Shown: in pieces, positions 43,517 to 64,000 of the stretch
Position numbering within the stretch: position 1 is the first letter of the stretch
Layout of the letters: every line of letters begins with the position of its first letter
Source of the DNA: Strigamia acuminata
Taxonomy: Eukaryota
Assembly: GCA_949358305.1 (NCBI GenBank)
Contig: OX442314.1
Span: forward strand, 27,342,001-27,406,000
Direction: 5' to 3'
Length of the DNA: 64,000 nucleotides
Program-made: the position numbers and the translations under genes
The notes under the pieces: generated by a model
The model's database searches: none
What the model saw: only the letters and a program-made list of their open reading frames with translations
What the model was told of the DNA's origin: nothing

Positions 43517-45218
43517 ATGGTAAGTATCGAAAGAACATAATTCATTGTTAAAAAAGTACAATTTACTAATTTATTTTCTTTGATTTATGAAAGGGCGAAC
43601 GAAAAGGACAGAATAAATATTATCCGCCAGATTACAGGCCTGAAAAAGGATCGTTGAATAAATACCATGGAACTCACGCACTTCGAGAACGAGCGAGGAA
43701 ATTGGATCAGGGAATTCTTATTATTCGGTATAAAATCAAAGAACTAAATTTAAAAATAAAAATTTAATTTGTGATTTATTTTTTCACGCAGGTTTGAAAT
43801 GCCGTATAATATTTGGTGCGACGGCTGCGGAAATCACATTGGAATGGGCGTACGATACAATGCGGAGAAAAGAAAGGTCGGGATGTATTACTCGACGCCT
43901 ATATATCAATTTCGAATGAAATGTCACTTGTGCGACAGCCATTTCGAAATGAAAACAGACCCACAGGTATATATTGGATTTTGAGACCCAAAAAATGAAT
44001 TACTAATCACAAAACACGTAAAGAAATGCACTTTATTAAGAGAAATGCATAAAAATCAATTTTTTAAGTGTAAAACTTTGATTTTTATGTGTAAAAATGA
44101 ATAAAAATTATTTTTAACGCGTAAAAATGCATAAAAATCATTTTTTAACGCGTAAAAATGCATAAAAATAATTTTTTTGTGTGTAAAAGTTAGATTTTTA
44201 CCTGTCAAAAAGCATAAAAATTAATTTTTCTTGAGTAATAGTTTGATTTTCATGTGTAAAAATATAATTTTAAGCGCTCAAATGCATTTTTTAGGTGCAA
44301 ACCCTACCCCAATGAGCAATAAAATGCATATTTAATTCGCTACTGCTGCATTATTTATTGATTTTAAAAAAAAAGTAAATTTATTTTGAAATTTTACTGT
44401 AGAATTTGGATTACATTGTCGTTTGTGGTGCGCGGAGACAGGAGAGACGATGGGACCCGACGGAGAATTCGCAAGTGGTTCCCGAGGATAAAGACACGAG
44501 TCAGAAGTTGGCCACGGATGCGATGTTTCGGCTGGAACACGGAGCCGAAGATAGAAGGAAGGGAAAGGAAGCTGCGCCCTCTTTAGCGCGGCTCGAAGAC
44601 ATGCAGAATCGATGGAAAGACGATTACATGAGCAATAAATGCTTGAGACATATTTTTAGAGTAAATTTACTGCATTAACATTTTGTTAAGGGTGAGAATT
44701 TGAATTAAAATTTGTCATTTTTGTAGGAAAAAAAGAAGGAAAGTCAAGAAAAGGAGAAGAATAATAAATTGCTGCTGATTAAATCGTCGTTAAATATACC
44801 GTTAGTGGAAGAGAACCCGGAAGATGTGAAGATTGCAAAGTTGCTGAAATTAACTCCGCTACAAAGTAAACTAATAAAGAACAAAATTGAAAATTTCATT
44901 TAAAATAATTCAAATTTTTCGTATAAAATTTTAAAAAAAATAACAATTTCATTAAAAAGTTTAAAATTTCATTATTACATGTCAGAATTTTATAATTTTT
45001 TTTCTCGTGAAGGTTACGAAGAAAGACAGCGCGAAAAGAGAATTGAAATCGATTCGAAACCGATTCTCCCTCAAACGATCAAGAACTGTAACCCTAACCA
45101 ACTGGATTTAAAAGTTAAGCGCCAGGAATTAGTGAGGATAAAAAATAGCAATTCAAATCCCGAAACCAGTAAATCGTTAGTTGCGAGCGAATATAATGAC
45201 AGTGGAGACAGTAATTAA
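43517..45218 (+). CDS. CCDC130: Splicing-related coiled-coil protein CCDC130/YJU2B (CWC16 family)
   Basis: ATG|gtaagt at 43517, then exons from 43594: MGERKGQNKYYPPDY...HALRERARKLDQGILIIRFEMPYNIWCDGCGNHIGMGVRYNAEK...MKCHLC...LATDAMFRLEHG...SLVASEYNDSGDSN*. Confidence 0.92.
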
Positions 45219-45378
45219 TTGTTAATTAGTTCATCATCTCATCTAACAAACTGTTTTGTTGTAAATAATTTTGAAATAAAGTTTTTCCATACGTATCGGT
45301 CTTTCTTTAGTCGCACAGTGCGGTGCTGTCCTTCAGCAAGCGAAGCACACTCGTACACGTCGTAATCATTTTTATAAA

Positions 45379-46924
45379 ATGGCGGCAAGTTGCATGTTTT
45401 TAAACCACCAAAACACGATAAACGAGATGTTTAAAAACTGTATCGACTTAAGAGCGTGTTCTCACGATTGTAAACTCGTCCACTCGACAAATTCTTACGA
45501 AATTAAGGAAGTATTTTTTGATATCCGATCAGAATACTTAATGGATACCCAAGCCTTGTCACGTGTTTGTAATCAACGACGTAAAAGAAGAAGAAAAATC
45601 GAGATAAAAGACGAATTTACGACTTATCACAAAGAGGTAATTTTATAAAATAAATAAAACCACATTCTTTTAATACACTGAATTACTTATTGAAGGTTTG
45701 CGAACTTATTGACAAGTGCGAACGATGTTGGAAACGTGAATGTCTCTCTGGTGAACCGAGTCGAGAAGAGATTTTATTGAATAATATTTTTGCCCGAATG
45801 GCGTCGAAAATAATTGATGACAACTGTAGCCTGTCGGAAATGTGTTCAAAAAATGCGATTGAGGATAACGAGCCTATAACTCGTAAAATAACAAGTATAA
45901 TGTTGAAACTATTCTACAAAATAATGTTTTTATTAACTAAATCTTCAAAATTTAGGTGACTGTCATGTTGAACAGAATCTAAACTTTGTAAATAAATTAA
46001 TAACACACGAAGAAGACTACGCGTGCGTTATCAAATGGGGTTCGAAGGATTTTTTACTCCCTGCAAACTCTTGCTTTTTATTATCAAACGATTTAAATCA
46101 TTTAATCAAAACGAAGAGGCAATTTGACGTCGTTATCATCGACCCCCCATGGAATAATAAAAGTCTGAAGAGGAAAAAATGGTTTGTAATTATAATTAAT
46201 TCATTTAAAATTGGTTAAATAATTTTCTTTTTAAATATTCAGTTATAACACGTCATCGGAAGTAGAATTTCTCAGTTTGCCGGTTCGAATTTTAGCGAAT
46301 AAAAGTTGCCTGGTGGGTGTGTGGACAACAAACAATAGTTATTTGATTAATTATGTGAAATCGCAAATGTTTCCTCATTGGGGCGTGGAATACATCACAG
46401 ATTGGCACTGGCTTAAAGTATTTTTAGCGAGAATTTGTAATTTTGGATTGATATTTACAGCTGTTAATTGGTTTTTAGGTGACGCGTTACGGAGAGTTTG
46501 TTGTCCCGTTGGATAATCATACAAAGAAACCGTACGAAAACTTAATTCTCGGTCGTGTAATGGGCTCGACGATAAACATACCAAAGGATTTGATTTTTGT
46601 CAGCGTTCCTAGTTGTTTTCATTCGCACAAACCACTGATCAAGGGTGAGAAAGAGATCAATGCGTTAATTGTAGGATATGCATTAGAATGTTTAATTTAT
46701 TTTTACTTAGATTTATTGAAGGATTTTGTTCCAGCGAAGGCGAAATATTTGGAAATATTCAGTCGTTCGCTTTGTTCAGGCTGGACCAGCTTCGGCGATG
46801 AGGTAGTAAACATACAATGTGTTCTGTGCAGTAGTTTTTTAATTTAATAGAATTCTGGTCTAACAAAACAATTCATTTCTAGGTACTAAAATTTCAACAA
46901 ATTGATCTATACGTCAAGAAATGA
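45379..46924 (+). CDS. METTL4: N6-adenine methyltransferase METTL4 (MT-A70 family)
   Basis: Spliced exons give FDVVIIDPPWNNKSLKRKK, VGVWTTN, WHWLKVTRYGEFV, KKPYENL, VSVPSCFHSHKP and LEIFSRSLCSGWTSFGDEVLKFQ; TGA at 46922-46924. Confidence 0.9.
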
Positions 46925-47417: not shown

Positions 47418-50400
47418 CTATTTTTTCTTTAATTTTAGTAACTTAGAAACCAGCTTTTGCATGAGTTGTGGAATTGCAAGAATAGAAAAGCCAAGCATCA
47501 GTGAAAAACAATTTCCAATGTCACAACACAGTGCAACTCCAGTGTAGGATAATACTTGTGAATACTCTTCAATTATGTTATTCAGTGGACTAAGACCAAG
47601 AACTTTGATTGGCCATGCTTCGGGATGTTGAAAGTGAACATATGTGTCAAACACTTGTTCTTCACAAAGTGGATGACAACCGCACTCGTTCATTACATTA
47701 GTAGTTAAAGATCTGTTCATGAACAATGCTAATGAAGTTTTAGCATCTGCAATATTGGTACAATCATCTTTTTTGATGTTGACCAAAAATGGTAACCTAA
47801 AAATATTTGAATAACATATTACAAACTACATAGTAGAACGTTTAGTACAAAGTTCGTAAATATCATTTCTTTAGTTTTTTTTCTATTTTGCTAAACAAAG
47901 AAAAACCGAACAAATGATACGTATGACAAATTTTTGCGTAAATACTAAAAGAAAAAATACTCACTTGCACTGAATTTCGTTATAAATCTTGTTGTCGTAG
48001 CAATCGTCTTGGCATCTTTTATGTTTGTCTCGGTCAAGGCAAGGTTGAGATTGTAAATTCAATCGGATGGTCTAAATTAAAACAATTGGTTAAGCAGTTT
48101 TGTTTACAATTGTCTGCAAACATACTTTAAGCATTTTGAATGTGAGAATGGTAAACGTATTTCTTTTAATAGATCTTCTGCTCTTGAGAATTGATGGAAT
48201 GGATGGGATTGTTGCTTCGCTTTGTTGAAAGTACACCTGCAGAAAGATAATTATATTTTATCGTAGTATTCAAGATCAGTTTGCTTCTGATGAAATAGCC
48301 TTGCAGTTAACTAAAATACAAGATGGTGCAGGTATATTTTATCTCTGTGCATTCTGCTAAGGTCTATAGTAAATTTCGGTGATCCATAATGACGGCGACG
48401 TTCGTACGCGCATACAGATGTTGCTAATATTCAAATGTGCGACGTCGTGGATACGAATTGTTTCATCATGTAAATCCGCGACTTCGAGGTGCATTTATAC
48501 GCGCATACGGCATTATTTAGTTTGATTATGACAGTAAGTTTGTGCAGTTAGCTAAGCGCCTGAGTGCTGTGCAAGATCAACAGTTGATGACAAATGGAAT
48601 TCATTCATTACTTCGTATTCATCTGGCTTACAGATTTGACGCTTGTTTGGTCGAAAACTAAAAAATATTACTGTAGCAACACCAGCATAAGTTAGTGGAC
48701 CTAAGAAAACAATGTCGTTTTAGTCGTTCTCTAACTTTTGCACAAATTTTTAATTACGCATATGAGATTGATAGCATGTTCCTGTGTGCATTGGTATTTT
48801 GCTCCAAGATACATTCGATCTAAATCCTGTGTTCTGATAAGAAAATACTTTTTACCGGTGTATATAATTTTCTTAAGTTTGGTTGAATTTGATTAAAGGC
48901 ACGAGTTTCATCTAGCACTCACATTTTATCTAATGGGTTATGCCTTTTGAGTCAATGGCATTGATCCCTCAATGCTTATTGACACAACAGACATTTTTAA
49001 ATATCGAACCAAACACTCACACTTGCAGCAAATTCCATGATGACCTTATCCATTACGGGTGTTTGAAATCTCCATACATCTTCCATCGATGATTTTTTCC
49101 CTCTGATAGTCTTATTCATTAAATCAATGAAGTGAATTTTACATTCTGGAATGCCTGTAGTGTTGGCATATTGGCTTCTGTAGTGTGTCATTAAGGGTCC
49201 GTCCATACATGCAATTACGTTGGGCAAATATAATGTGTCATTTTCTTGAATAGTTACTACATATCTTGTCGGTTCGCTCAAATATAATGTGATTCTTTCT
49301 TTGCTTACATAAACCGCTAGTAAGCCGGAAATAAAAACAAGAATACGATACAACGTTCGTTGAAGCTTGGGCGAAGTTTCCATTGTCTTTTTCTTCAAAT
49401 TTTCCGATTTGATTTGATTAACAATTTTGGTTTTTATCTGAGCTTGTAGTCGAACAGGTCTGATATAATTGCAGAAGAGGAGCAAACCAAAGTGTACAAT
49501 TTCGATTATAGAGAGGAGAGACAATCCCAAGCAAAATCCTAGGTTGCCACCCAAATCGATCACCAAATTCGGAATTTTGTAAATGTAGATTTCTGTCATT
49601 CTGACAAATGTTTCTTCCATCACTTTAAAATTTATACTTGCTAAATCTTTACTACTGGGTTCATCTTCAAAATCTAACAATGAAAGATGAATAATTTTGT
49701 TATAATTACACATCAAAATGATAATGTTTGACTTAACTAGTATCGGTGTGCATTACTAGGAGATAAACTCTTGTTTGACAAGGTCTTAAGCAACCACATT
49801 CAATTGTTGCCAGCGTGGATGTTTCGGGTTTATATGAGTTTTCATACACTTGAGCCACGATTGATTTGTTTGCTTCCAAACTGCAGTCTGGCAGATTTTT
49901 GTCAGCCATGTAAGGCAACCTAAGCTTAAGTTAACAATCTATTAGCATACTAATGAATGATCAATGTGTACTTTAGGTAAGTTTAAACCTGCACTTTGGA
50001 TCGGTTTTGAGATTTTGCTTGGTCACACACTCTTTATAACATTCGGTCTGCTTCTCCAGGCTGGGCTCACAGTAGGGGTTTCTTGAAGGCAAAAATTGAT
50101 ACTTGCAGGAAAGAAATACAATTTTACTATTTTAGTTATATGTATTGATTTACAAATCAAATGTATTATAAATGCATAAAGATAACTAATTATGCAACGC
50201 GATTCACAGTTGAATAAGCTGCAAGAAATATACGAGCAAGCAATTATAACTCACTTGACGCAAAATAAATGAAATTTTAATTTCAATTCCCATCTGCGTT
50301 GTCATGGTATATCTATACGGCATGACACCATCCTTCGGAGACATCTAGTATTAAATTGTGTTATGTATATTATATTACTTTTACACTATACTCTTGTTCG

Positions 50401-53009
50401 ACTCAAATATCAAAAGGGTGGCCTTCTCCTATTGGCCGAGCCGTATCACTGGTATAGTGCTCCAAAAATATAGACCCAAACACCAGAAATGCATTACAAT
50501 GTACAGACATTGTAATCGATTGCCTACGTAACAGCCAAAATTTCAAAACTGTTTGCTTTCCAGACAAAGCCACCAATAAACAGAACAAACATGAGTTTTA
50601 CATTTATATGTGCATAAAACTTTATTTTCTAAATGGAAATAACATTTTATAATAAAATACAATTAAAGTTATATCAATTTAAATGGTCATAATAATCTAA
50701 AAAATAAATAAAAATAAAAACTATTTCTCCTAGTGGTAGTAATACAGACTGGATTTAGGAGTAATGCGGCTCGGCCAATGGGAGAAGGCCACCCTTTTGA
50801 GTCGAACAAGAGTATAGCTGCATTTAAAAAAATCATGTTTCAAATGTTGTAGGTGTTTGTTTTTCTTATTCTTTTTTTGACATCAGAAATCAAAAACACA
50901 AACACATACAGTGGTCGCCAAAGGTTTAGCACCACTACTGTCATTTGCACTATTTAGTGCTTTCAGATACAAAATATGAATTTGGCATTAAATTCTGCTC
51001 TGAGAAAATGCTAAAACATTTAAACAAATCATACATTGTAATTAACAATAGTAATTTTTATTGTTTGTATGCAAATTGTTGCTGGACAAACGTTCAGAAA
51101 ATCATTGTTGATTTGAACAACACATTTAAATATTTTGTTTGCTAACCGACTAATAAGCAATCAGCTTATTAGTCGATTCGTCAAATCATGACGAATCGAT
51201 TTTGACAAAATGAACTGACCATAATCATTGGTGCTTTACAGGTCCCATTTTTCTTAAAGACGGCATTAAATTTTCTGTTTAGAGCTAGTTTGTTTATAAT
51301 ATTTTGTTTGCTAACCGACTAATAAGCAATCAGCTTATTAGTCGATTCGTCAAATCATGACGAATCGATTTTGACAAAATGAACTGACCATAATCATTGG
51401 TGCTTTACAGGTCCCATTTTTCTTAAAGACGGCATTAAATTTTCTGTTTAGAGCTAGTTTTACATCTAAAAAAATAGCTTACTCAAAAATTATATAAACA
51501 GACAAGATAATTATCGTATATTAATTTTACCTGTTGTTATAATTAGTGTACGGCCAAAAACATAATCGTTGTATTTTAATGCAAATGTTTTATCTTGATT
51601 TGTATAATTGCCACTTTTTATCTTAGTGCCAAGTAACACAGTTTTGCCCTTAAAAAAAGTTATTGGCAAGTTATTGGAAACAATATTTGTTAATACGGCT
51701 TTCTTAGGTATCCAAAAGAACAGTATACAGGGTGTCCCAAATGAACGAAGCCAGTCAAGTAACGAAAAGACCATTTGAGTGAGATGAATGAAACGAATGT
51801 AGTACTAGTAAACTAAGTGAGGGCATTTCAAAAATGTGAGACAATTTGACCTCTGACCTTTTCTTCAAAGTCATTCCTACTCTAACTTCTAAACTAAGAC
51901 TGGTAGAGCAAAATTCTCAATTGAAAAAAGAAAGAGCACATTCTGTTTAGTAGAAAACTGCTTATCAAATTTACTCCGACACAATAACAGATAAAATTAC
52001 GAAAAAAATAAATCGTGAGAAAGTCAAAACATTCCAAGAAAAGTGCTTTATTTTGCTGACATTCTAAGTACTACTTCAAATTACTATGGAGTCATGAATT
52101 GTTATTAATTTAACTGATATTTTAAATGATATTTCACAAATAAAATTATGAAAAAGTCAAAAAATACAAAAACGAAAACCAAGATCAAGACTATTTCATG
52201 ATTTATTTTTTTTGTAATTTTATCTGTTATTGTGTCGGAGTAAATTTGATGAGTAGTTTCTACTAAACAGAAGGTGCTCTTTCTTTTTTCAATTAAGAAT
52301 TTGCTCTACCAGTCTTAGTTTAGAAGTTAGAGTTGGAATGCCCTTGAATAAAAGGTCAGAGATTAAATTTTTTCACATTTTTGAAATGCCCTTAGTTAGT
52401 TTACTAGTACTACATTTGCTTCATTCATCTCACTCAAATGGTCTTTTCGTTATTTGACTGGCTTCGTTCATTTGGGACACCCTGTATATAATTTCTTTTT
52501 AAATTGCATAAAGGAATAAGGTAACTGGCCTGTTTGATTTTGAGGTGCTGCATATTTTCTGATATATTGGAATGTTCCCACAAGTTTGTATAATTTTCAA
52601 CCTTGACTTGCTGTGAGATGATTCCTCTCACTGGGATCCTGCAAGCTTTCATTAACTCTTGTGCACCATCAATTGTATTAGGTTCTGGTATTTTGTCCCA
52701 GTACTTCGACATCAATGGAGTGTCAAGAGCCACGAGTCTCACTTCAGGGAATCTGTTTTCCTGTATTGGAACAAACTCAATTTCAACTTTGTAATTTCCA
52801 GACATGTAGAAGCGAAATCTTTCCCAAGTTTGATAGCTGAAGATGCCGAAACAAACGACCAAACCAAGCAACCAAATGAAACGAAGTATTCCAGTGTTCT
52901 CGAGAACTTGGTTTATAAATTGAAAACTATCTTTGCCCGTCAGTGAAGTTTGCATTTCTTGTTGCACATATTGGCGAATACAGTTACGGGTCCGACGAAT
53001 AAGCAACAT
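47418..53009 (-). CDS. DEG/ENaC (pickpocket/ASIC-like) channel gene encoding two subunits fused in one 824-aa polypeptide
   Basis: Exons 53009-52530, 51648-51531, 51465-51389, 50344-50255, 50101-49989, 49919-49738, 49673-49021, 48833-48758, 48700-48612, 48236-48126, 48071-47965 and 47796-47418 are all phase-compatible (2475 nt). Unit 1: TM1 RFIWLLGLVVCFGIFSYQ, FPEV, Cys-rich thumb ECGCLRPC, TM2 DLGGNLGFCLGLSLLSIIE. Unit 2: TM1 RILVFISGLLAVYV, LPNVIAC, GTCY, ECGCHPLCEE, TM2 DIGNCFSLMLGFSILAI. Confidence 0.8.
50391..50812. mobile_element. TA-flanked MITE (TIR CTCTTGTTCGACTCAAA...AAGGGTGGCCTTCTCC)
   Basis: About 55-bp imperfect TIRs, TATA on both sides; intronic. Confidence 0.75.
51129..51460. 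repeat. Tandem duplication (period 169 bp) covering most of DEG/ENaC exon 3 and a double hairpin
   Basis: 51129-51291 is repeated at 51298-51460. Confidence 0.9.
51728..52484. mobile_element. Tc1/mariner-like MITE (TIR CAGGGTGTCCCAAATGAACG..., ~300-bp arms)
   Basis: Long imperfect TIRs, TA TSD, CAGGGTG terminus; lies in the first intron of the DEG/ENaC gene. Confidence 0.85.
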
Positions 53010-54685: not shown

Positions 54686-57411
54686 ATGGCCACCAATTTA
54701 ATTTACCGAGTGTTGCGAATTTCGATATATCCGAGGGTAATTTGGAGAAGTGGAGCCAAGCTTTTGGCTATTATTTGATTGCGGCGAGAGTGGGCGAAGC
54801 TCAGAAGTTGGCAACGCTGCTGCACCTCGCTGGAAGCGCCGTGCAGGACATTTTCGATACATTTGAGCCGGCGAATAAAGCGACGTACGATTTGGCCGAG
54901 GCCGCGTTGGCCGTTTATTTCAACCCACGGAAGAATTTGCGGTTCGAACGGCACACATTTTGACAGCAAACGCAAGAGCCCGGTGAACAAATGGACGCCT
55001 ACGTGACGCGTTTAAAAACAATGGTAAAAAGCTGTGAATTTGGGGTTTTGGAAGAAGATTTAATCGTCGATCAAGTGCTGGAAAAAGGCCGCGATAAAGG
55101 CTTGCGGCGGCGCTTGCTGCGCGAAACAAATTTGACTTTAGATTCGTTGTTAACGTTGGCTCGTTCGTCGGAAGCAAGTGAACGACACGCAACAGCGATG
55201 GAACGCACAGCAACGGAGAACATCAAGGAAAACCTCGTAAATCAGCTGGGTGAGAAAAAACAGTTTTTTAAAAATTGCGGAAATAGTAGGGGGCGTGGCA
55301 CATTTCGAAAATCCAACTCGAAGCCGCAAAACACGGACGATAGACGGGAAAACAAACCTCAAGGAGTGAAAGAATGCTATCGGTGTGGCCACAAGGACCA
55401 TCTGGCGAATGATTGCACCGTTGCTAAGAACAAGGAGTGCGGATTTTGCCATAAACTGGGCCATTTTGCCAAAGTTTGCAGGTTGAAGAGCGCCGGAGGT
55501 CGTGCACGAGGAAAGGACCGTGTCCAATACGTCGGTGTCAACGAATACGACTATGACAGCGAGTACTCGTGTTGCTTAACGTCTCAGAGACGGGATAATG
55601 GCGTGACCGTCAGAATCGAACAAGAGGTAAAATTTTTGATTGATTCGGGTTCGTCGGTAAATACAGTTGATCAGAAGACGCGGACATTATTGAAAAAGAA
55701 AGGAATTAAACTGACACCAACAAAGACGAGATTGTTTGCGTATGGAGTGAATGAACCGTTAGTAGTTAGTGGGGAATTTAATGCACAAGTGCAAACCGCG
55801 AAGAAATCTTTGAATACGAGATTTTTGGTCGTGCCGTCGGGAAAATTGCCGTTATTGTCTCGGAAAACATCCGAAGATTTGGGATTTTTGAAAATCGATG
55901 AAGAAATTGTGAATGAAATTAATAATGATGATAATTCTTTATTTGATGAGTCTGTAGGAAAACTACGAAAGGACTTGGCCAATCGAATTACGAAATTCCG
56001 AGATGTTTTCAAGGGAATAGGAAAACTAAAAGAGTTTGAATTGGAACTTTAAATCGACCCGGACGTGCGACCAGTGGCACAATCAGTGCGGCGGATACCA
56101 TTCCATATCCGTAAACAATTAGATATTGAAATTGACAATTTATTACAACAGGATATTATCGAGCCAGTTACGGGGGCAACGGACTGGGTTTCACCCGTCG
56201 TACCTGTGAAAAAGCCTGATGGCTCGATACGCATTTGTTTGGATATGCGTGCAGTCAACGAGGCCGTCAAGAGGAACCGCCATCCACTTCCCACCATGGA
56301 GGAGGTCCTCGACGAAATCGACGGCGCTGAGGTTATTTCAAAACTGGATTGTCGTCAGGGATACCTGCAGATCCCTCTCAAAGAAGATTCGCGACGTTAT
56401 ACGGTGTTCGTCACACACCGTGGCCTTTTTAGGTACAAAAGACTTTTTTTCGGAATAGCAAGTGCGCCGGAGGAGTACCAACGCATCGTGCAGAATATTT
56501 TGGCCGACTGCGAGGGCACGAGGAATTTGTTGGACGATATCGTCGTGCATGGGCGGACGGCAGCGGAACACGACGAGCGTTTGGAGAAGGTTTTCGAGAC
56601 GTTGTCTCGAAATGGTTTGACATTAAATCTCAAAAAGTGTTGTTTTGGGGTATCGAAATTGACTTTTCTTGGCCATGTTATTTCTAGAAGTGGAATTTCA
56701 GTGGCGGAATCGAAGGTGGAAGCTGTGCGAAATGCCGTAGCACCCAGGAATGAAACTGAAATTCGAAGTTTCTTGGGGCTAATTAATTATTGCGCCAGAT
56801 TTATCCCTAATTTCGCGACGGAGGCAGAGCCACTGCGACTAATGGCCAGGAAAGACGTTGCATTCGAATGGGGAAAACGCCAGAACGACGCATTCGAGCG
56901 ATTGAAGGGACTTTTATGCAGTTCGGACGTGTTGGCGTTTTTCCGAAAAAACGTCGAGACTGAATTGATCGTCGACGCGTCGCCCGGTGGGCTTGGAGCC
57001 GTGTTGCTCCAACGTCAGGTCGACGGGGCCATGAAGCCAATTGCGTTCGCGAGCCGAACGTTGTCAGATGTTGAACGCCGTTATTCGCAGACCGAGAAGG
57101 AGGGGCTCGCAGTCGTTTGGGGCTGCGAGCGCTTCAGAATGTATTTAATCGGCATGCCATTTCTCCTTATTACAGACCACAAAGCCCTCGTGACCATTTA
57201 TGGGACCAGATCCAAGCCATCAGCGAGGATGGAAAGATGGGTCTTGAGACTGCAGCCTTTCGAATTCACGATTCGTCACCGGCCCGGCAGCGCGAAAATT
57301 GCGGACGCGCTCTCTCGTTTGCTGCCGGCCGGAGAAGGGAAAAGTGTTTTTGGACGAACAGAGGGACACGTGCGGTTTATTGTTGAAAGTGCCTTGTTAA
57401 AGGCAATGACT
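54686..57411 (+). pseudogene. gag-pol polyprotein pseudogene
   Basis: Probable ATG at 54686 is out of frame with gag; in-frame stops TGA 54961-54963 and TAA 56050-56052; truncated by the nested insertion. Confidence 0.85.
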
Positions 57412-58083
57412 TGTTACGAATCAACTTAGATGTTTAATTGATTTGATCTGAATTTACGCGCAAGGTGATGTTAGCGCAAATCAGTGGGCAAAGTTCGTAG
57501 ATTTACTCTGTTTGTGCCATCGTCATATGCGGATATCGGACGGTGAATAAACCTAACTCGCTGTAACACACATTATTTATATTCGACGGGCTCAATCTCA
57601 CGTTGTGGGTCTTTACGTTTAAAAAGAATGAGTATGCGCAGTGATATTCGTATGCGGGTGGGCGTAGGATGTCACAGGCATGCGAAGGGATAAAAGGTGG
57701 GCGAAAAGAGGCGCTATTAAGTGTTAAATTAGAAGGTGCGCGTGTTAAAGCGCAAAATAAAGATCGACAAACTCAATTCAATCTAAGAGGTGTTAACTCG
57801 TTGAGAGAAGTATGAGCAGTGTGGATTATGGATAAAAGTAGCGACCAGGTAAACATGAGTCATGTGACCAGGTCGATTGGAGTGGGTGAGGGGGTGGAAG
57901 GTATGAAATAAGGTTAATTGTTGGAAATAATAAGATGCGCGCAATGAAGCTGCGCATATATTTGGAGATGAATCATCGATGTTAGATGAAAAGAAAGATT
58001 GGGAAAAAATAAGAAAACTTAAGATTGGGTCAGTCTAAGTTAGAAATGAATAAAAAAGAAGGGTGGGTAACCTGCCCGTGACA
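57412..58083 (-). repeat. 3' LTR (672 bp) of a second LTR retroelement in opposite orientation
   Basis: On the - strand it reads TGTCACG...CGTAACA and is directly preceded by the polypurine tract AAGGGGGGAGGGA (58096-58084); pol homology stops exactly at 57411. Confidence 0.8.
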
Positions 58084-60795: not shown

Positions 60796-63558
60796 TTATT
60801 CGAAATCCTTTTCCAAGATTTCGCGATGACGAGGAATTCGAAAATATTTAATCATATTAAGCGCAATTTCTACCACTATGCGCTGCGCATCATGAAAATT
60901 AGTCGCACCTCGTCGGTTAATCTCGTTCCGACAATGGTCGAGAAATAACTCGCCATATCGTCGATACAATAGATTTAATAATGGATTAGCTTCGGCCAAA
61001 GGCATGCGTAGATCACCCACGGCGAGGGAACGGAAAAGTTGTCGTTGCGCTTGTGTTGACATTCCAAATTGAAGGCACTCACCTCGACCGTTAGCGAAGT
61101 TGCAGATAATAGCCGCTGGAGACATCAAGCTAGGCAAAAGTTCTGAGGTAATTGTGGGTGGGGCATCGTCCCAACCCGAGAAACCCGGACCCGGTGGAAT
61201 GGATGGCGCAAATTCGTGATGGTGAGCTGAAGTTTGAAGCATCTCTCGCAATTCGTTTAAACGAGTTTCCTCAGCGCGTCGCTTTTCTTCCGCTTCCTTA
61301 GCTTCCTGGATCGCTTTCTTTTCCTCCTCAACACGATGGATCTCGGCAACGCGTGCTTTTTCCGCCGCATGTTTCTGCTCGTACTCCCGTTGACGTTGCT
61401 CGGTGGTCATTCGCTCGTAGTCACGACGGCGCCGAATGTGATAGATCATGCGCGAGATCTCCTCATGCATGATCCAAATCAACTGCTCCAGAACGCCATC
61501 ATGATCGTAGATATCGCATTCCGACATCCGCCTCAATACTTGAGCAGCCATATCGCGAATGCGAGTCTTCATCTGACCATGAATGTTACGGAAATCCGCA
61601 CGAAGTATCTCAAAATCTTTGTCCATCATATGTTCTAAAAGCGCAATCCACCCTTTACGTTCCATATGAAATCGGGTCTTAGATACTTCTGGCCCCTTCA
61701 CGCAAATTTCGACTTCGAATTCATCTAATAAATCGGGAATTAGTTCCAGAGAATTTACCGGTTTCGTTGTTACGCCGTATCGGTCAACTGCCAGATCGCA
61801 ATGAGAGGCAATATCTCCAAGAGCCTGTGCCCCATCAGAGGCGACAGTCGCGCTGGCTTCGGTAGGAGCCACTCGAGGGGGCGGCGTCGAAGTCTGACTA
61901 GAGGAGACCGAAATCGTACTTGGTGTGGAAGCGGCCTTTGTAGTTGTGGAAACATTGCGCGATGGTAACTGCGCATAGGTGATGGGTCCAGGCGTCGACA
62001 CTGGAATGTTCGAGATTTTTGACGCTGAGCACGATGGTGTTTCTGTTGCTTTGGCCGCCGTTGTTGTAGTAGAAGTTACACTTGAGGTTGTCACGAAAAT
62101 ATTTTTCTTTGCCAAAAGCTTCGGTCGGGCACCTGTATTGGAATTAAGATTGTTATTAGCAATTGGTTTCAAAGAAGATGCAGATAAATTCGCATTCTGT
62201 GGCGATTGTGCAAATCGTTCCCGCATCGCTGGAGGAAGTCGTGCACTGAGTGGTGGTCCGCGGGGTTGCTGCATGGTCGGAACATTGGACAATCGTGGAT
62301 CGGCCATTTTCCGCTCCAACTTTCGAACGTCCTGGACCTGTGCAGCCGGTGCTTCCGCAAAAATCTCATGAGCCACTCCACAGATGGACGGGGTTACACT
62401 GAAACTTGATTCGTTGTCCCGAACTGGTGGAGTGCTGGAACGACGCTGGGCGATTTCTTCGTTATGCATACGAGTTAATTCCGCCATTTCTTGTTCAGTC
62501 ACATTTCCCAACGTAGAACGGCCAGAATAATAGCGCAAATCACAGGGCGGATCTGAGTTCTCGTTTTTTGTAACTGGAATTGAATCAATATGGGTAGACA
62601 CACTTGTGAACATGGAATCGTCGTCGTCCTCATCATCCCCGTTATCGTCAATGGATAAACCGGCCAGTTGCGCTGTTGCTTGCGCAAGGGTTTCCTCGGA
62701 TGGCTGTGGACGGTATCTAGTCGTATTGGTGTCCCGAGTTTCGTCACGGCGCAAAGGCATTTTCGTGTCCTCGATCTTACCCAGCACTTTCTGCGTAAGT
62801 TTCTCCGTACGATCCTCTCGTCTGTTGATTGAACATGGAGGACGATTTCCTGTAAAATAGGGTAATACTGACTGGTCATTAGTGTCTATGGTATCCATTG
62901 CGCCCTGAGTCTCTGCAACCAGTTCCACTTGCTCACTCATCATCGAGGCATCCCCTGGAAATGGGTGAAAATAGCGAATTGTTGCGGATTGCATCTGATC
63001 AACAAGATGTTGTTCTTTCAACATGGGAGCCAGTCCTTCCACTTCGTCTTGGAGTAAGTTTGGCACTTGGATATATAGAAGTTGAACTACCTCAGCCATC
63101 GGATAGATCCATTGTCGCGGTGTAATGCGATTTGTGTGCGCAACCCGTTGCGCCCGGTGCCAATACCAGAAATGAATTGTCCGAAACCTCTGTATCGACA
63201 CCGGACTCCCGTTCAGTGGTCGAAAAGGCGGGTATGTCACGCTTACGATAATCACATGGTCTTGTTCATATCTTCGCAACACCCAACCGTAGATTTGGCG
63301 CATCCAAACAATGTGTAGATTGCGCCGTAAGTCCCCCCGACCGTCACACGCCCGGCACTTGCACTCCGGTCTCGGCGGGTCGATCTCTTTACCATAGCCG
63401 GAACATACCGGACATATCTCGAAATTGGGGAATCCAGCATCGAGTGGATCATCGGGATGGTTGTGCGGAAACTTTGGTGGACCCGCCGCATGTAAAGGCG
63501 GCGTTCGATAGTTTTTCGGATATTTCCTTCCCGGGAAGTCCTCATTACAACACGCCAT
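60796..63558 (-). CDS. Orphan intronless ~920-aa protein: two CxxCxGxG motifs, acidic and Ser/Thr/Pro-rich linker, coiled coil
   Basis: Open frame 63825-60796; first ATG at 63558 (context AACATGG). Contains CPVCSGYG...CRACDGRG, DDNGDDEDDDD and an E/K/R-rich helix (EQRQREYEQKHAAEKARVAEIHRVEEEKKAIQEAKEAEEKRRAEE). GC content is visibly higher than in the flanks. Confidence 0.8.
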   Translation of the reverse strand: MACCNEDFPGRKYPKNYRTPPLHAAGPPKFPHNHPDDPLDAGFPNFEICPVCSGYGKEIDPPRPECKCRACDGRGDLRRNLHIVWMRQIYGWVLRRYEQDHVIIVSVTYPPFRPLNGSPVSIQRFRTIHFWYWHRAQRVAHTNRITPRQWIYPMAEVVQLLYIQVPNLLQDEVEGLAPMLKEQHLVDQMQSATIRYFHPFPGDASMMSEQVELVAETQGAMDTIDTNDQSVLPYFTGNRPPCSINRREDRTEKLTQKVLGKIEDTKMPLRRDETRDTNTTRYRPQPSEETLAQATAQLAGLSIDDNGDDEDDDDSMFTSVSTHIDSIPVTKNENSDPPCDLRYYSGRSTLGNVTEQEMAELTRMHNEEIAQRRSSTPPVRDNESSFSVTPSICGVAHEIFAEAPAAQVQDVRKLERKMADPRLSNVPTMQQPRGPPLSARLPPAMRERFAQSPQNANLSASSLKPIANNNLNSNTGARPKLLAKKNIFVTTSSVTSTTTTAAKATETPSCSASKISNIPVSTPGPITYAQLPSRNVSTTTKAASTPSTISVSSSQTSTPPPRVAPTEASATVASDGAQALGDIASHCDLAVDRYGVTTKPVNSLELIPDLLDEFEVEICVKGPEVSKTRFHMERKGWIALLEHMMDKDFEILRADFRNIHGQMKTRIRDMAAQVLRRMSECDIYDHDGVLEQLIWIMHEEISRMIYHIRRRRDYERMTTEQRQREYEQKHAAEKARVAEIHRVEEEKKAIQEAKEAEEKRRAEETRLNELREMLQTSAHHHEFAPSIPPGPGFSGWDDAPPTITSELLPSLMSPAAIICNFANGRGECLQFGMSTQAQRQLFRSLAVGDLRMPLAEANPLLNLLYRRYGELFLDHCRNEINRRGATNFHDAQRIVVEIALNMIKYFRIPRHREILEKDFE

Positions 63559-64000
63559 GTTGGTTTCAATATGTTGATAAAAATATAATGCGCCTAAGTT
63601 GGTGGAGGCAATATTTATATAAATACACAAAACAAATAAGACGTTTGACAAACGATACTCACAATTATCAAGCGCAACAACACGAACGCGCACAGAACGA
63701 AACAAACAACGAGGAGTAAAGAATATTCCCAGGAATGTAACGAGTCGTAAAACTTTGCTTCGAGAAGCTTCGATGAACGATTGAAAACTCGCACATGTAA
63801 TAAAGTCGGGTTCGAGGTTAGACACTAACTAATTGCAATAGAAAGGCGACATCCAGTGTTGGAATTCAGAAGTTAACGAAAGTTGTCTTCGCTCAAAACT
63901 CTTGTTTCAAAGTGATTAAATAAGGATGGTGAGATAAACAAGTAACAATTCAGAACACAGAATATTAATTTAAATAAAGTGCGCATAAATTATATTAATT

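What the first reader, a model, noticed from the sequence alone, without database searches (positions are those of the whole stretch)
47418..53009. Natural head-to-tail concatemer: two DEG/ENaC channel subunits in one polypeptide
Seen: a single exon (49673-49021) runs without a stop from TM2 of a first subunit (DLGGNLGFCLGLSLLSIIE) through a ~40-aa basic linker into TM1 and the post-TM1 motif of a second subunit (RILVFISGLLAVYVSKERITLYLSEPT...LPNVIAC). All 12 exons are phase-compatible (824 aa), and both halves share a phase-2 intron in the C-R/K-LP(Y/F) motif, indicating internal gene duplication. Known: DEG/ENaC/ASIC/ppk subunits normally have two TM helices and assemble as trimers. Inference: a four-TM covalent dimer would fix stoichiometry (dimer plus a separate third subunit, or a higher-order assembly). 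I do not know of a characterised natural example, but cannot exclude one.
Basis: partly seen in the sequence, partly recalled or inferred. Interest (0 to 1): 0.9.

Follow-up and report, generated by a model that had tools for sequence, protein, structure and literature searches.

The report
Centipede double-subunit DEG/ENaC channel family
A centipede gene carries two different DEG/ENaC ion-channel subunits in one unbroken reading frame, an arrangement also seen in many predicted genes of a related centipede, which would lock two of the three positions of a likely sensory channel that is normally built from separate subunits.

Summary
Confirmed and extended. The 12-exon, 824-codon minus-strand model is open, and exon 7 runs from TM2 of unit A through a 37-residue basic linker into TM1 of unit B. 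The units are only 13-16% identical but share five introns of the same phase, three at the same aligned codon.

The window is a centipede close to, but not, Strigamia maritima. The same junction occurs in 18 S. maritima gene models at about 20-67% identity. A units and B units form separate clades (95/93 and 90/92): one old fusion, then duplication of the whole pair. Laid DNA contigs show no net frameshift in exon 7.

Nearest solved relatives are the centipede homotrimers BRTNaC1 and PDPNaC1. B units have altered pore-gate residues. Best reading: a covalent A-B dimer completed by a separate third subunit, giving a fixed asymmetric pore (inferred).

No RNA data were available; expression and assembly are untested. 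Ten literature searches found no natural example.

The parts
47418..53009 (-). Whole gene: 12 exons, 824 aa, two DEG/ENaC units (A about aa 1-421, linker 422-458, B 459-824)
52530..53009 (-). Exon 1: start codon, N-terminus of unit A (His of the HG motif replaced), TM1(A) at about 52824-52895, start of ectodomain; GC donor
   Evidence: (ASC E 1.2e-4)
51531..51648 (-). Exon 2 (unit A ectodomain; phases 0 to 1)
51389..51465 (-). Exon 3 (unit A; phases 1 to 0); most of it lies in a 163-nt exact tandem duplication
50255..50344 (-). Exon 4 (unit A; phases 0 to 0)
49989..50101 (-). Exon 5 (unit A Cys-rich thumb; ends at the shared phase-2 intron)
49738..49919 (-). Exon 6 (unit A thumb, CGC motif; ends at a phase-1 intron that unit B lacks)
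49021..49673 (-). Exon 7, the junction exon: pre-TM2 strand, TM2(A), linker, TM1(B), start of ectodomain B in one frame
49471..49569 (-). TM2 of unit A: D393, G396, N397, G399, G403-L-S405 (PDPNaC1 D372, G375, S376, G378, G382-A-S384)
49360..49470 (-). Predicted cytosolic linker, 37 aa, 9 K/R against 2 D/E, predicted helix; holds in-frame Met451 at 49383
49279..49359 (-). TM1 of unit B (predicted helix, pLDDT 85-88; hydropathy peak only 1.46)
48758..48833 (-). Exon 8 (unit B; T-G-x-C motif; phases 0 to 1)
48612..48700 (-). Exon 9 (unit B; phases 1 to 0)
48126..48236 (-). Exon 10 (unit B; phases 0 to 0)
47965..48071 (-). Exon 11 (unit B Cys-rich thumb; ends at the shared phase-2 intron)
47418..47796 (-). 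Exon 12: thumb, TM2(B) at about 47457-47534 (D791, N794, C795, S797, G801-F-S803), short basic tail, stop
   Evidence: (ASC E 1.3e-4)
51724..52488 (.). Inverted-repeat (MITE-like) insertion in intron 1; absent from some contigs
   Evidence: (joints skipping 759-763 nt)
50388..50827 (.). Inverted-repeat (MITE-like) insertion in intron 3; absent from some contigs
   Evidence: (joint skipping 438 nt)

Best explanation
The gene holds two different DEG/ENaC units (A then B) in one reading frame and is likely translated as one four-helix chain that would fill two of the three positions of a trimeric cation channel, with a separate single-unit subunit predicted to fill the third. Shown: the open frame, the two units, the shared introns, the conserved junction, and separate A and B clades. 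Inferred: (1) topology N-in, TM1, ectodomain, TM2, basic cytosolic linker, TM1', ectodomain', TM2', C-in, the same head-to-tail layout as engineered ASIC concatemers. (2) One old fusion in a centipede ancestor, after which the pair duplicated as a unit into several subfamilies of about 20-25% identity. (3) The link fixes one B beside one A per pore. B units carry Asn or Ser where the lower-gate Gly sits and usually Ser at the selectivity Gly, which a pore can probably tolerate in one copy but not in three. (4) The role is probably sensory (protons, heat or chemicals), like the nearest characterised relatives BRTNaC1 and PDPNaC1. My odds: fused gene is real and ancestral 0.93; made as one chain 0.85; dimer plus separate third subunit 0.55.
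For: Gene model: (five shared introns). Family: one search gave 46 hits; 30 were named, 22 are S. maritima, 18 of them with the A-B junction, plus one unnamed ENA protein. The distance from the TM2 GxS serine to the post-TM1 cysteine is 97-125 aa (median 104, window 104) in 21 of 21 aligned rows; linkers are 30-50 aa and basic in 19 of 19. The closest homologue T1ITA9 is 67% identical, keeps the frame through a 4-codon indel, and is 17 of 37 identical in the linker. Trees: A 11 rows 94/93 and B 11 rows 87/80; with units of 300 aa or more and a mixture model, A 95/93 and B 90/92. Profiles built without the window's subfamily assign unit A to A (147 against 119 bits for unit B) and unit B to B (198 against 70). 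DNA contigs: every exon-7 indel listed is net 0 or +3, and 17 of 36 listed coding substitutions are synonymous (P 3e-4 to 0.011). Unit A lost both Cys of a pair each kept in 17 of 18 rows, as expected for a folded protein. The AF2 model of the full S. maritima two-unit protein T1JD34 matches BRTNaC1 with unit B (Z 19.5, rmsd 4.2, 319 aligned) and PDPNaC1 with unit A (Z 19.4, rmsd 3.9, 318 aligned). Engineered head-to-tail ASIC1a dimers gave currents in oocytes (PMC4529235 passages). Human ENaC beta-gamma dimers and three-subunit forms are in the PDB (titles 9btu, 9btg, 9blr).
Against: No transcript evidence: no listed run is on record as RNA and the laid contigs carry introns. S. maritima support comes from automatic gene models, many partial, whose exon structure could not be checked. 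The search used the junction as query, so unfused A or B genes would be under-sampled. In the 66-row quick tree the window's unit A fell outside the Strigamia clade on a 2.3-long branch; only the smaller trees place it in A. TM1(B) is weakly hydrophobic. An in-frame Met451 in a good start context allows a B-only product. Only 40 of 154 substitution rows were shown, and no listed contig spans TM2(A) to TM1(B). The third subunit is not identified and no complex was modelled.
Confidence: 0.55

Rival explanations
1. The chain is made whole but assembles only with itself: three chains build two linked trimers (A2B plus AB2), or two chains build one trimer with one unit left dangling.
For: Needs no unknown partner. 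Engineered ASIC1a dimers gave currents alone (PMC4529235 passages), though lower-order by-products were seen there. Both units keep a G-x-S motif in the window.
Against: AB2 would put two Asn/Ser residues at the lower-gate Gly, where PDPNaC1 has a 0.39 A radius (PMC12714832 passage); 5 of 6 complete B units lack this Gly. This is inference, not a test.
Confidence: 0.17
2. The fusion is a co-expression device: the chain is cut in the basic linker, or an internal promoter and Met451 also give free B, and free A and B units then mix as ordinary subunits.
For: In-frame Met451 is kept in T1ITA9; 15 of 19 linkers hold a Met; the linker is basic; engineered concatemers show cleavage by-products.
Against: 4 of 19 linkers have no Met, and no cleavage motif is conserved. 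B has no N-terminal segment of its own, and the linker length is narrowly held.
Confidence: 0.12
3. Two A-B chains form a four-unit (pseudo-tetrameric) pore, as two-domain TPC and K2P channels do.
For: Even unit number. One paper argues for ASIC1a tetramers at the cell surface (PMC4529235 abstract and passages).
Against: Every related solved structure listed is three-chain where a count is given, including BRTNaC1 and PDPNaC1. Both units keep the trimer-type fold.
Confidence: 0.06
4. This copy is a decayed gene, or the fusion is a chance read-through or annotation merge of two neighbouring genes and no fused protein is made.
For: No RNA evidence. An open linker has a 3-7% chance on its own. 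There is a GC donor, two MITE-like insertions and a tandem duplication over exon 3. Multi-unit models in a midge and a leech look like merges of tandem paralogues (their units group by protein).
Against: The junction lies within one exon, so no merge by splicing is needed. It is kept in a second species and in 18 models across subfamilies; A and B form clades; coding changes are enriched for synonymous ones; indels keep the frame.
Confidence: 0.1

Closest known systems
BRTNaC1, heat- and proton-gated DEG/ENaC of Scolopendra subspinipes mutilans antennae (PDB 8ymr, 8ymw; PMC9974506)
   Same: Best sequence and structure match for the family: E 6e-20 with T1JD34, Z 19.5; compact subunit of 431 aa; centipede.
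   Different: Single two-helix subunit, three chains per entry; about 20-22% identity; no fused form found in the passages read.
PDPNaC1, proton-dissociation-gated channel of the same centipede (PDB 9jf7; PMC12714832)
   Same: Top PDB hit for the window's exon 7 (E 1.3e-5); Z 19.4 to unit A of the T1JD34 model; lacks a canonical HG motif, as do both window units.
   Different: Homotrimer of 421-aa subunits with G375-S376-x-G378. A units have G-N-x-G; B units mostly N/S-x-x-S.
Engineered ASIC concatemers (PMC4529235, PMC10329638)
   Same: Head-to-tail linkage of TM2 to the next TM1; used to fix stoichiometry; functional in oocytes.
   Different: Artificial linkers joining full termini; here natural, with the termini trimmed to a 30-50-aa linker and two units 13-16% identical.
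Human ENaC beta-gamma dimer completed by a third subunit (PDB titles 9btu, 9btg, 9blr)
   Same: A dimer of two different subunits plus a third, as proposed here.
   Different: Non-covalent, three separate genes. Only entry titles were seen.
Internally duplicated channels of other superfamilies: TPC, K2P, four-domain Nav/Cav (recalled, no call)
   Same: Tandem gene duplication turning separate subunits into one chain with asymmetric pore residues.
   Different: Four-fold pores, where two or four repeats divide evenly; two repeats do not divide a trimer.

Membership tests
DEG/ENaC superfamily (per unit) | Match to the ASC family profile | tested here: met
   Exon 7 PF00858 E 1.1e-13, 2 stretches, above cut-off; exons 1 and 12 E about 1e-4 alone; both whole units over 110 bits on a profile of 23 outside units
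DEG/ENaC superfamily (per unit) | Two membrane helices around a large ectodomain | tested here: met
   Hydropathy peaks 2.14/2.15 (A) and 1.46/1.70 (B), best other peak 0.87; AF2 helices. TM1(B) is weak in the window; family median 1.87
DEG/ENaC superfamily (per unit) | Cys-rich thumb with conserved cysteines | tested here: met
   Of 13 conserved Cys columns, unit B has 13 and unit A has 10; A lacks both partners of one pair and a TM2 Cys
DEG/ENaC superfamily (per unit) | TM2 motif D-x-G-G-x-x-G-x3-G-x-S | tested here: inconclusive
   Complete in unit A; unit B keeps D, the first G and G-x-S but has Asn and Ser at two Gly positions
DEG/ENaC superfamily (per unit) | ASIC/ENaC ectodomain fold | tested here: met
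   Tested on the S. maritima relative T1JD34, not on the window's spliced protein: both halves Z about 19.4-19.5 to centipede channels, and unit A about 14 to ASIC1
Canonical DEG/ENaC subunit (per polypeptide) | One unit, two helices, per chain | tested here: not met
   Two units in one frame, no stop; hence filed as a variant, not as an ordinary subunit
Canonical DEG/ENaC subunit (per polypeptide) | N-terminal His-Gly motif (common, but absent from PDPNaC1 per PMC12714832) | tested here: not met
   Unit A has Thr-Gly at the likely position; unit B has no such segment (by inspection)
Canonical DEG/ENaC subunit (per polypeptide) | Trimeric assembly and cation conduction | not testable with these tools
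   Needs expression, subunit counting and electrophysiology
BRTNaC1/PDPNaC1-like centipede sensory channels | Closest sequence and structure relatives | tested here: met
   Top PDB hits
BRTNaC1/PDPNaC1-like centipede sensory channels | One clade with BRTNaC1 and PDPNaC1 | not tested
BRTNaC1/PDPNaC1-like centipede sensory channels | Antennal neuron expression; heat or proton gating | not testable with these tools
   No RNA run was listed

The most novel reading that the evidence does not exclude
Soil centipedes, which lack insect-type odorant receptors, built a sensory repertoire from covalent DEG/ENaC heterodimers: dozens of divergent A-B chains act as tuning modules, each completed by a shared single-unit co-subunit into an asymmetric pore. 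Separately, some arthropods went on to single-chain three-unit channels (two Halocaridina rubra models and one S. maritima subfamily look three-unit), the DEG/ENaC counterpart of four-domain Nav/Cav channels.
Probability: 0.3. Interest if true: 0.92.

Novelty: new variant of a known kind. Interest (0 to 1): 0.78.

Why it matters
DEG/ENaC channels are taught as trimers of separate two-helix subunits, and heteromer stoichiometry and subunit order are long-standing problems that labs attack with artificial concatemers. A natural, evolutionarily stable two-unit chain does not divide into three, so it forces a testable question: what fills the third position, or does the pore depart from three-fold symmetry? 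The family also offers many natural A/B pairs with asymmetric gate and filter residues for testing how each subunit contributes to selectivity. It points to an unannotated sensory gene expansion in centipedes next to BRTNaC1 and PDPNaC1. It also warns that two-domain ASC gene models are not always annotation merges.

Tried and rejected
No whole genome is held for this window, so paralogues and a partner gene could not be sought in this organism. No RNA holder listed; this is no evidence either way. The laid runs behave as DNA, with introns covered and no splice joints. A word-based search of exon 7 among proteins of 381-2000 aa found nothing among 1310 candidates; the full HMMER search found the family. 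The profile word search returned 12 proteins, 11 from S. maritima and no other centipede; it is insensitive, so range beyond Strigamia is open. A third unit in the window: none found by a unit profile over all six frames of the 64 kb (that profile included the window's own units); an in-frame stop lies 7 codons upstream of the start. One apparent stop among variants (49523) shares its codon with 49522, at the same depth in a single X1 contig, giving Tyr; rejected as a stop. The 66-row quick tree misplaced unit A on a long branch; the 31-row and 20-row trees, which left out gappy rows and distant outgroups, placed it in A. Leave-one-gene-out classification was right for 29 of 30 units, but close paralogues stayed in and fragments are biased to the junction side, so it is weak. 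ESM Atlas gave only single-unit ASC clusters; it searches only large clusters. No complex was predicted: a full dimer plus monomer exceeds the size limit and a pass would follow from likeness to solved trimers. Earlier scan findings: none. Literature: searches found no natural DEG/ENaC concatemer; the S. maritima genome paper has no hit for degenerin, pickpocket, amiloride or sodium channel in its main text.
Full report
OBSERVATION. I rebuilt the gene from the window. Twelve minus-strand exons from 53009 to 47418 give 2475 nt, 824 residues and one terminal stop. All eleven introns end in AG; ten start with GT and intron 1 with GC. Exon 7 (49673-49021) is one open frame holding the last strand and TM2 of a first unit, a 37-residue linker (9 K/R, 2 D/E) and TM1 plus the start of the ectodomain of a second unit. 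Pfam ASC hits this exon twice (E 1.1e-13); exons 1 and 12 hit alone just under the cut-off, and 5 small exons scanned did not hit. The units are 16% identical by BLASTP (E 5e-10) and 46 of 352 in a family alignment. Their introns pair up as phases 0,1,0,0,2, three in the same column and two within 2-3 residues; unit A has one extra intron. Hydropathy gives four peaks, with TM1 of unit B weak at 1.46; AF2 on exon 7 predicts helices for TM2(A), the linker and TM1(B) (pTM 0.35, a fragment).

ORGANISM. An exon of the neighbouring MT-A70 gene is 82% identical to Strigamia maritima T1ITA7. Its other exons match at 61-85% and the Saf4/Yju2 exons mostly at 92-95%. So the window is a centipede related to, but distinct from, S. 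maritima; I did not determine the species. The best hit of exon 7 is T1ITA9 (67%, E 4e-84). Its accession is two from T1ITA7, which suggests the syntenic orthologue (inferred from numbering, not checked on a scaffold). It keeps the frame across the linker through a 4-codon indel; identity is 21 of 33 in TM2, 17 of 37 in the linker and 21 of 27 in TM1.

IS THE FUSION REAL? An open linker alone could be luck (3-7%). Four lines say it is not. (a) Family: phmmer with exon 7 over 1.84 billion representatives gave 46 hits. I named 30 of them: 22 are S. maritima, 18 with the same A-B junction and 4 of a second subfamily (C); one more junction protein is an unnamed ENA record from a 1154-nt contig. 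In all 21 aligned rows the TM2 serine lies 97-125 residues before the post-TM1 cysteine (median 104, window 104), and all 19 linkers examined are 30-50 aa and basic. (b) Trees: with 31 of my 66 unit rows, the 11 A units form one side of a branch (94/93) and the 11 B units another (87/80). With the 20 rows of 300 aa or more and a mixture model the values are 95/93 and 90/92. Subfamily pairs mirror each other in A and B. Against this, the 66-row quick tree put the window's unit A outside the Strigamia clade on a long branch. Profiles built without the window's subfamily assign its units correctly in both directions. (c) DNA contigs of three runs: the exon-7 indels listed are two net-zero pairs and one +3. 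Of 40 substitution rows shown (of 154), 36 are coding and 17 synonymous, against 21% expected (P 3e-4, or 0.011 at 28%), with no true stop. Many contigs are only 85-95% alike, so alleles and close paralogues are mixed, and no listed contig spans the whole junction. (d) Unit A has lost both members of a Cys pair each kept in 17 of 18 rows, the pattern expected under structural constraint. What is missing is RNA: none was listed, and the S. maritima proteins are automatic models whose exons I could not see.

WHAT IT IS. The nearest solved relatives are the Scolopendra antennal channels BRTNaC1 and PDPNaC1. The AF2 model of the complete S. maritima two-unit protein T1JD34 (pLDDT 68, pTM 0.63, linker under 50) matches BRTNaC1 with unit B (Z 19.5, rmsd 4.2, 319 aligned) and PDPNaC1 with unit A (Z 19.4, rmsd 3.9, 318 aligned), against about 14 for ASIC1. 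BRTNaC1 is a 431-aa heat- and proton-gated channel (PMC9974506, passages). PDPNaC1 is a 421-aa homotrimer without a canonical HG motif, gated at Asp372 and Gly375, with Ser376 as proton-block site and Gly378 as selectivity site; Gly378Ser raises Na+ preference (PMC12714832, parts 1-2 of 9 and passages). On that numbering the two units differ systematically. A units have Gly375 in 15 of 15, Asn376 in 15 of 15 and Gly378 in 13 of 15. Complete B units lack Gly375 in 5 of 6 and have Ser378 in 4 of 6; the window's B has Asn, Cys and Ser.

HOW IT MOST LIKELY WORKS. The topology is compatible with one chain, as in engineered head-to-tail ASIC1a dimers, which gave currents (PMC4529235, passages; trimeric concatemers in PMC10329638, passages). 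Two units cannot close a three-fold pore alone. I favour (0.55) an A-B chain plus one free subunit. B's bulky gate residue suits a single copy per pore (inference). Single-unit models of the sister C subfamily exist (T1ITG4, T1ITG8, T1ITG9) as candidate partners, and human ENaC beta-gamma dimers with third subunits are in the PDB (titles). Rivals are self-assembly into linked trimers (0.17), cleavage or a B-only product from Met451 (0.12), a dead or merely read-through gene (0.10) and a four-unit pore (0.06). A sensory role is inferred from the relatives and from the divergent expansion; S. maritima is described as blind and without insect odorant receptors (passages).

NOVELTY. Ten searches found no natural DEG/ENaC concatemer. 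Term searches within the mite, insect ppk, sea anemone, S. maritima genome and decapod papers (passages only) showed none. The library lacks most subscription papers; the 2025 BRTNaC1 structure paper was seen only as a reference, and I read no supplements, where trees might include these sequences. The architecture sits unremarked in UniProt as uncharacterized proteins. Multi-unit models also exist elsewhere: three units in two Halocaridina rubra proteins and in the S. maritima C subfamily, and three, five and two units in midge, firefly and leech models. In the midge and leech the units group by protein, so those may be annotation merges; none could be checked here.

VERDICT. A real, old, conserved fusion defining a centipede family of two-unit DEG/ENaC genes: a new variant of a known channel kind, surprising to a specialist and directly testable. 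Expression and assembly remain untested. Interest 0.78.

Noticed in passing
P0007 (KAK7028032, 1244 aa) and P0030 (KAK7067251, 1053 aa), Halocaridina rubra: Gene models with three divergent DEG/ENaC units each; their first units group together (support 88, long branches). Candidates for single-chain trimeric channels; exon structure not checkable here.
   Followed up: partly
P0003 (T1IU28), P0005 (T1IZL2), P0043, P0047, P0048, S. maritima: A second subfamily (C) with much more similar units; overlapping models imply a three-unit chain, while P0049-P0053 show only one unit each. Either a second, younger fusion or merges of tandem genes.
   Followed up: partly
window 51129-51460: Exact 163-nt tandem duplication covering most of exon 3 and its donor; the second copy lacks the acceptor. 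Recent allele or assembly artefact; could disturb splicing.
   Followed up: partly
window 51724-52488 and 50388-50827: Two high-copy inverted-repeat elements in introns 1 and 3, skipped by contigs of runs X1-X3, so polymorphic or absent from paralogues.
   Followed up: partly
window 48990-49760, runs X1-X3: Many contigs at 85-95% identity, some going on unlike the window upstream of TM1(B): close paralogues of this gene exist in the organism; whether all are fused could not be seen.
   Followed up: partly
window 54964-57429 (+): LTR-retrotransposon gag-pol (zinc knuckle, protease, RT, RNase H) about 2 kb upstream of the start codon; Ty3/gypsy type by recalled domain order.
   Followed up: partly
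window 60799-63828 (-): 1010-codon open frame with no Pfam hit, with a Cys-rich CxxC motif pair near the start and a low-complexity middle; unexplained, possibly part of a mobile element.
   Followed up: partly
window 43594-46847 (+): Saf4/Yju2 and MT-A70 (METTL4-like, name recalled) genes lie head to tail and are merged into one S. maritima model, T1ITA7; the MT-A70 gene ends about 600 nt from the channel's stop, convergently.
   Followed up: partly
window about 11800-42500: Other neighbours: a PLAT-repeat gene, a kinesin and a protein kinase; LOXHD1-, KIF17- and AMPK-like by recalled motifs.
   Followed up: no
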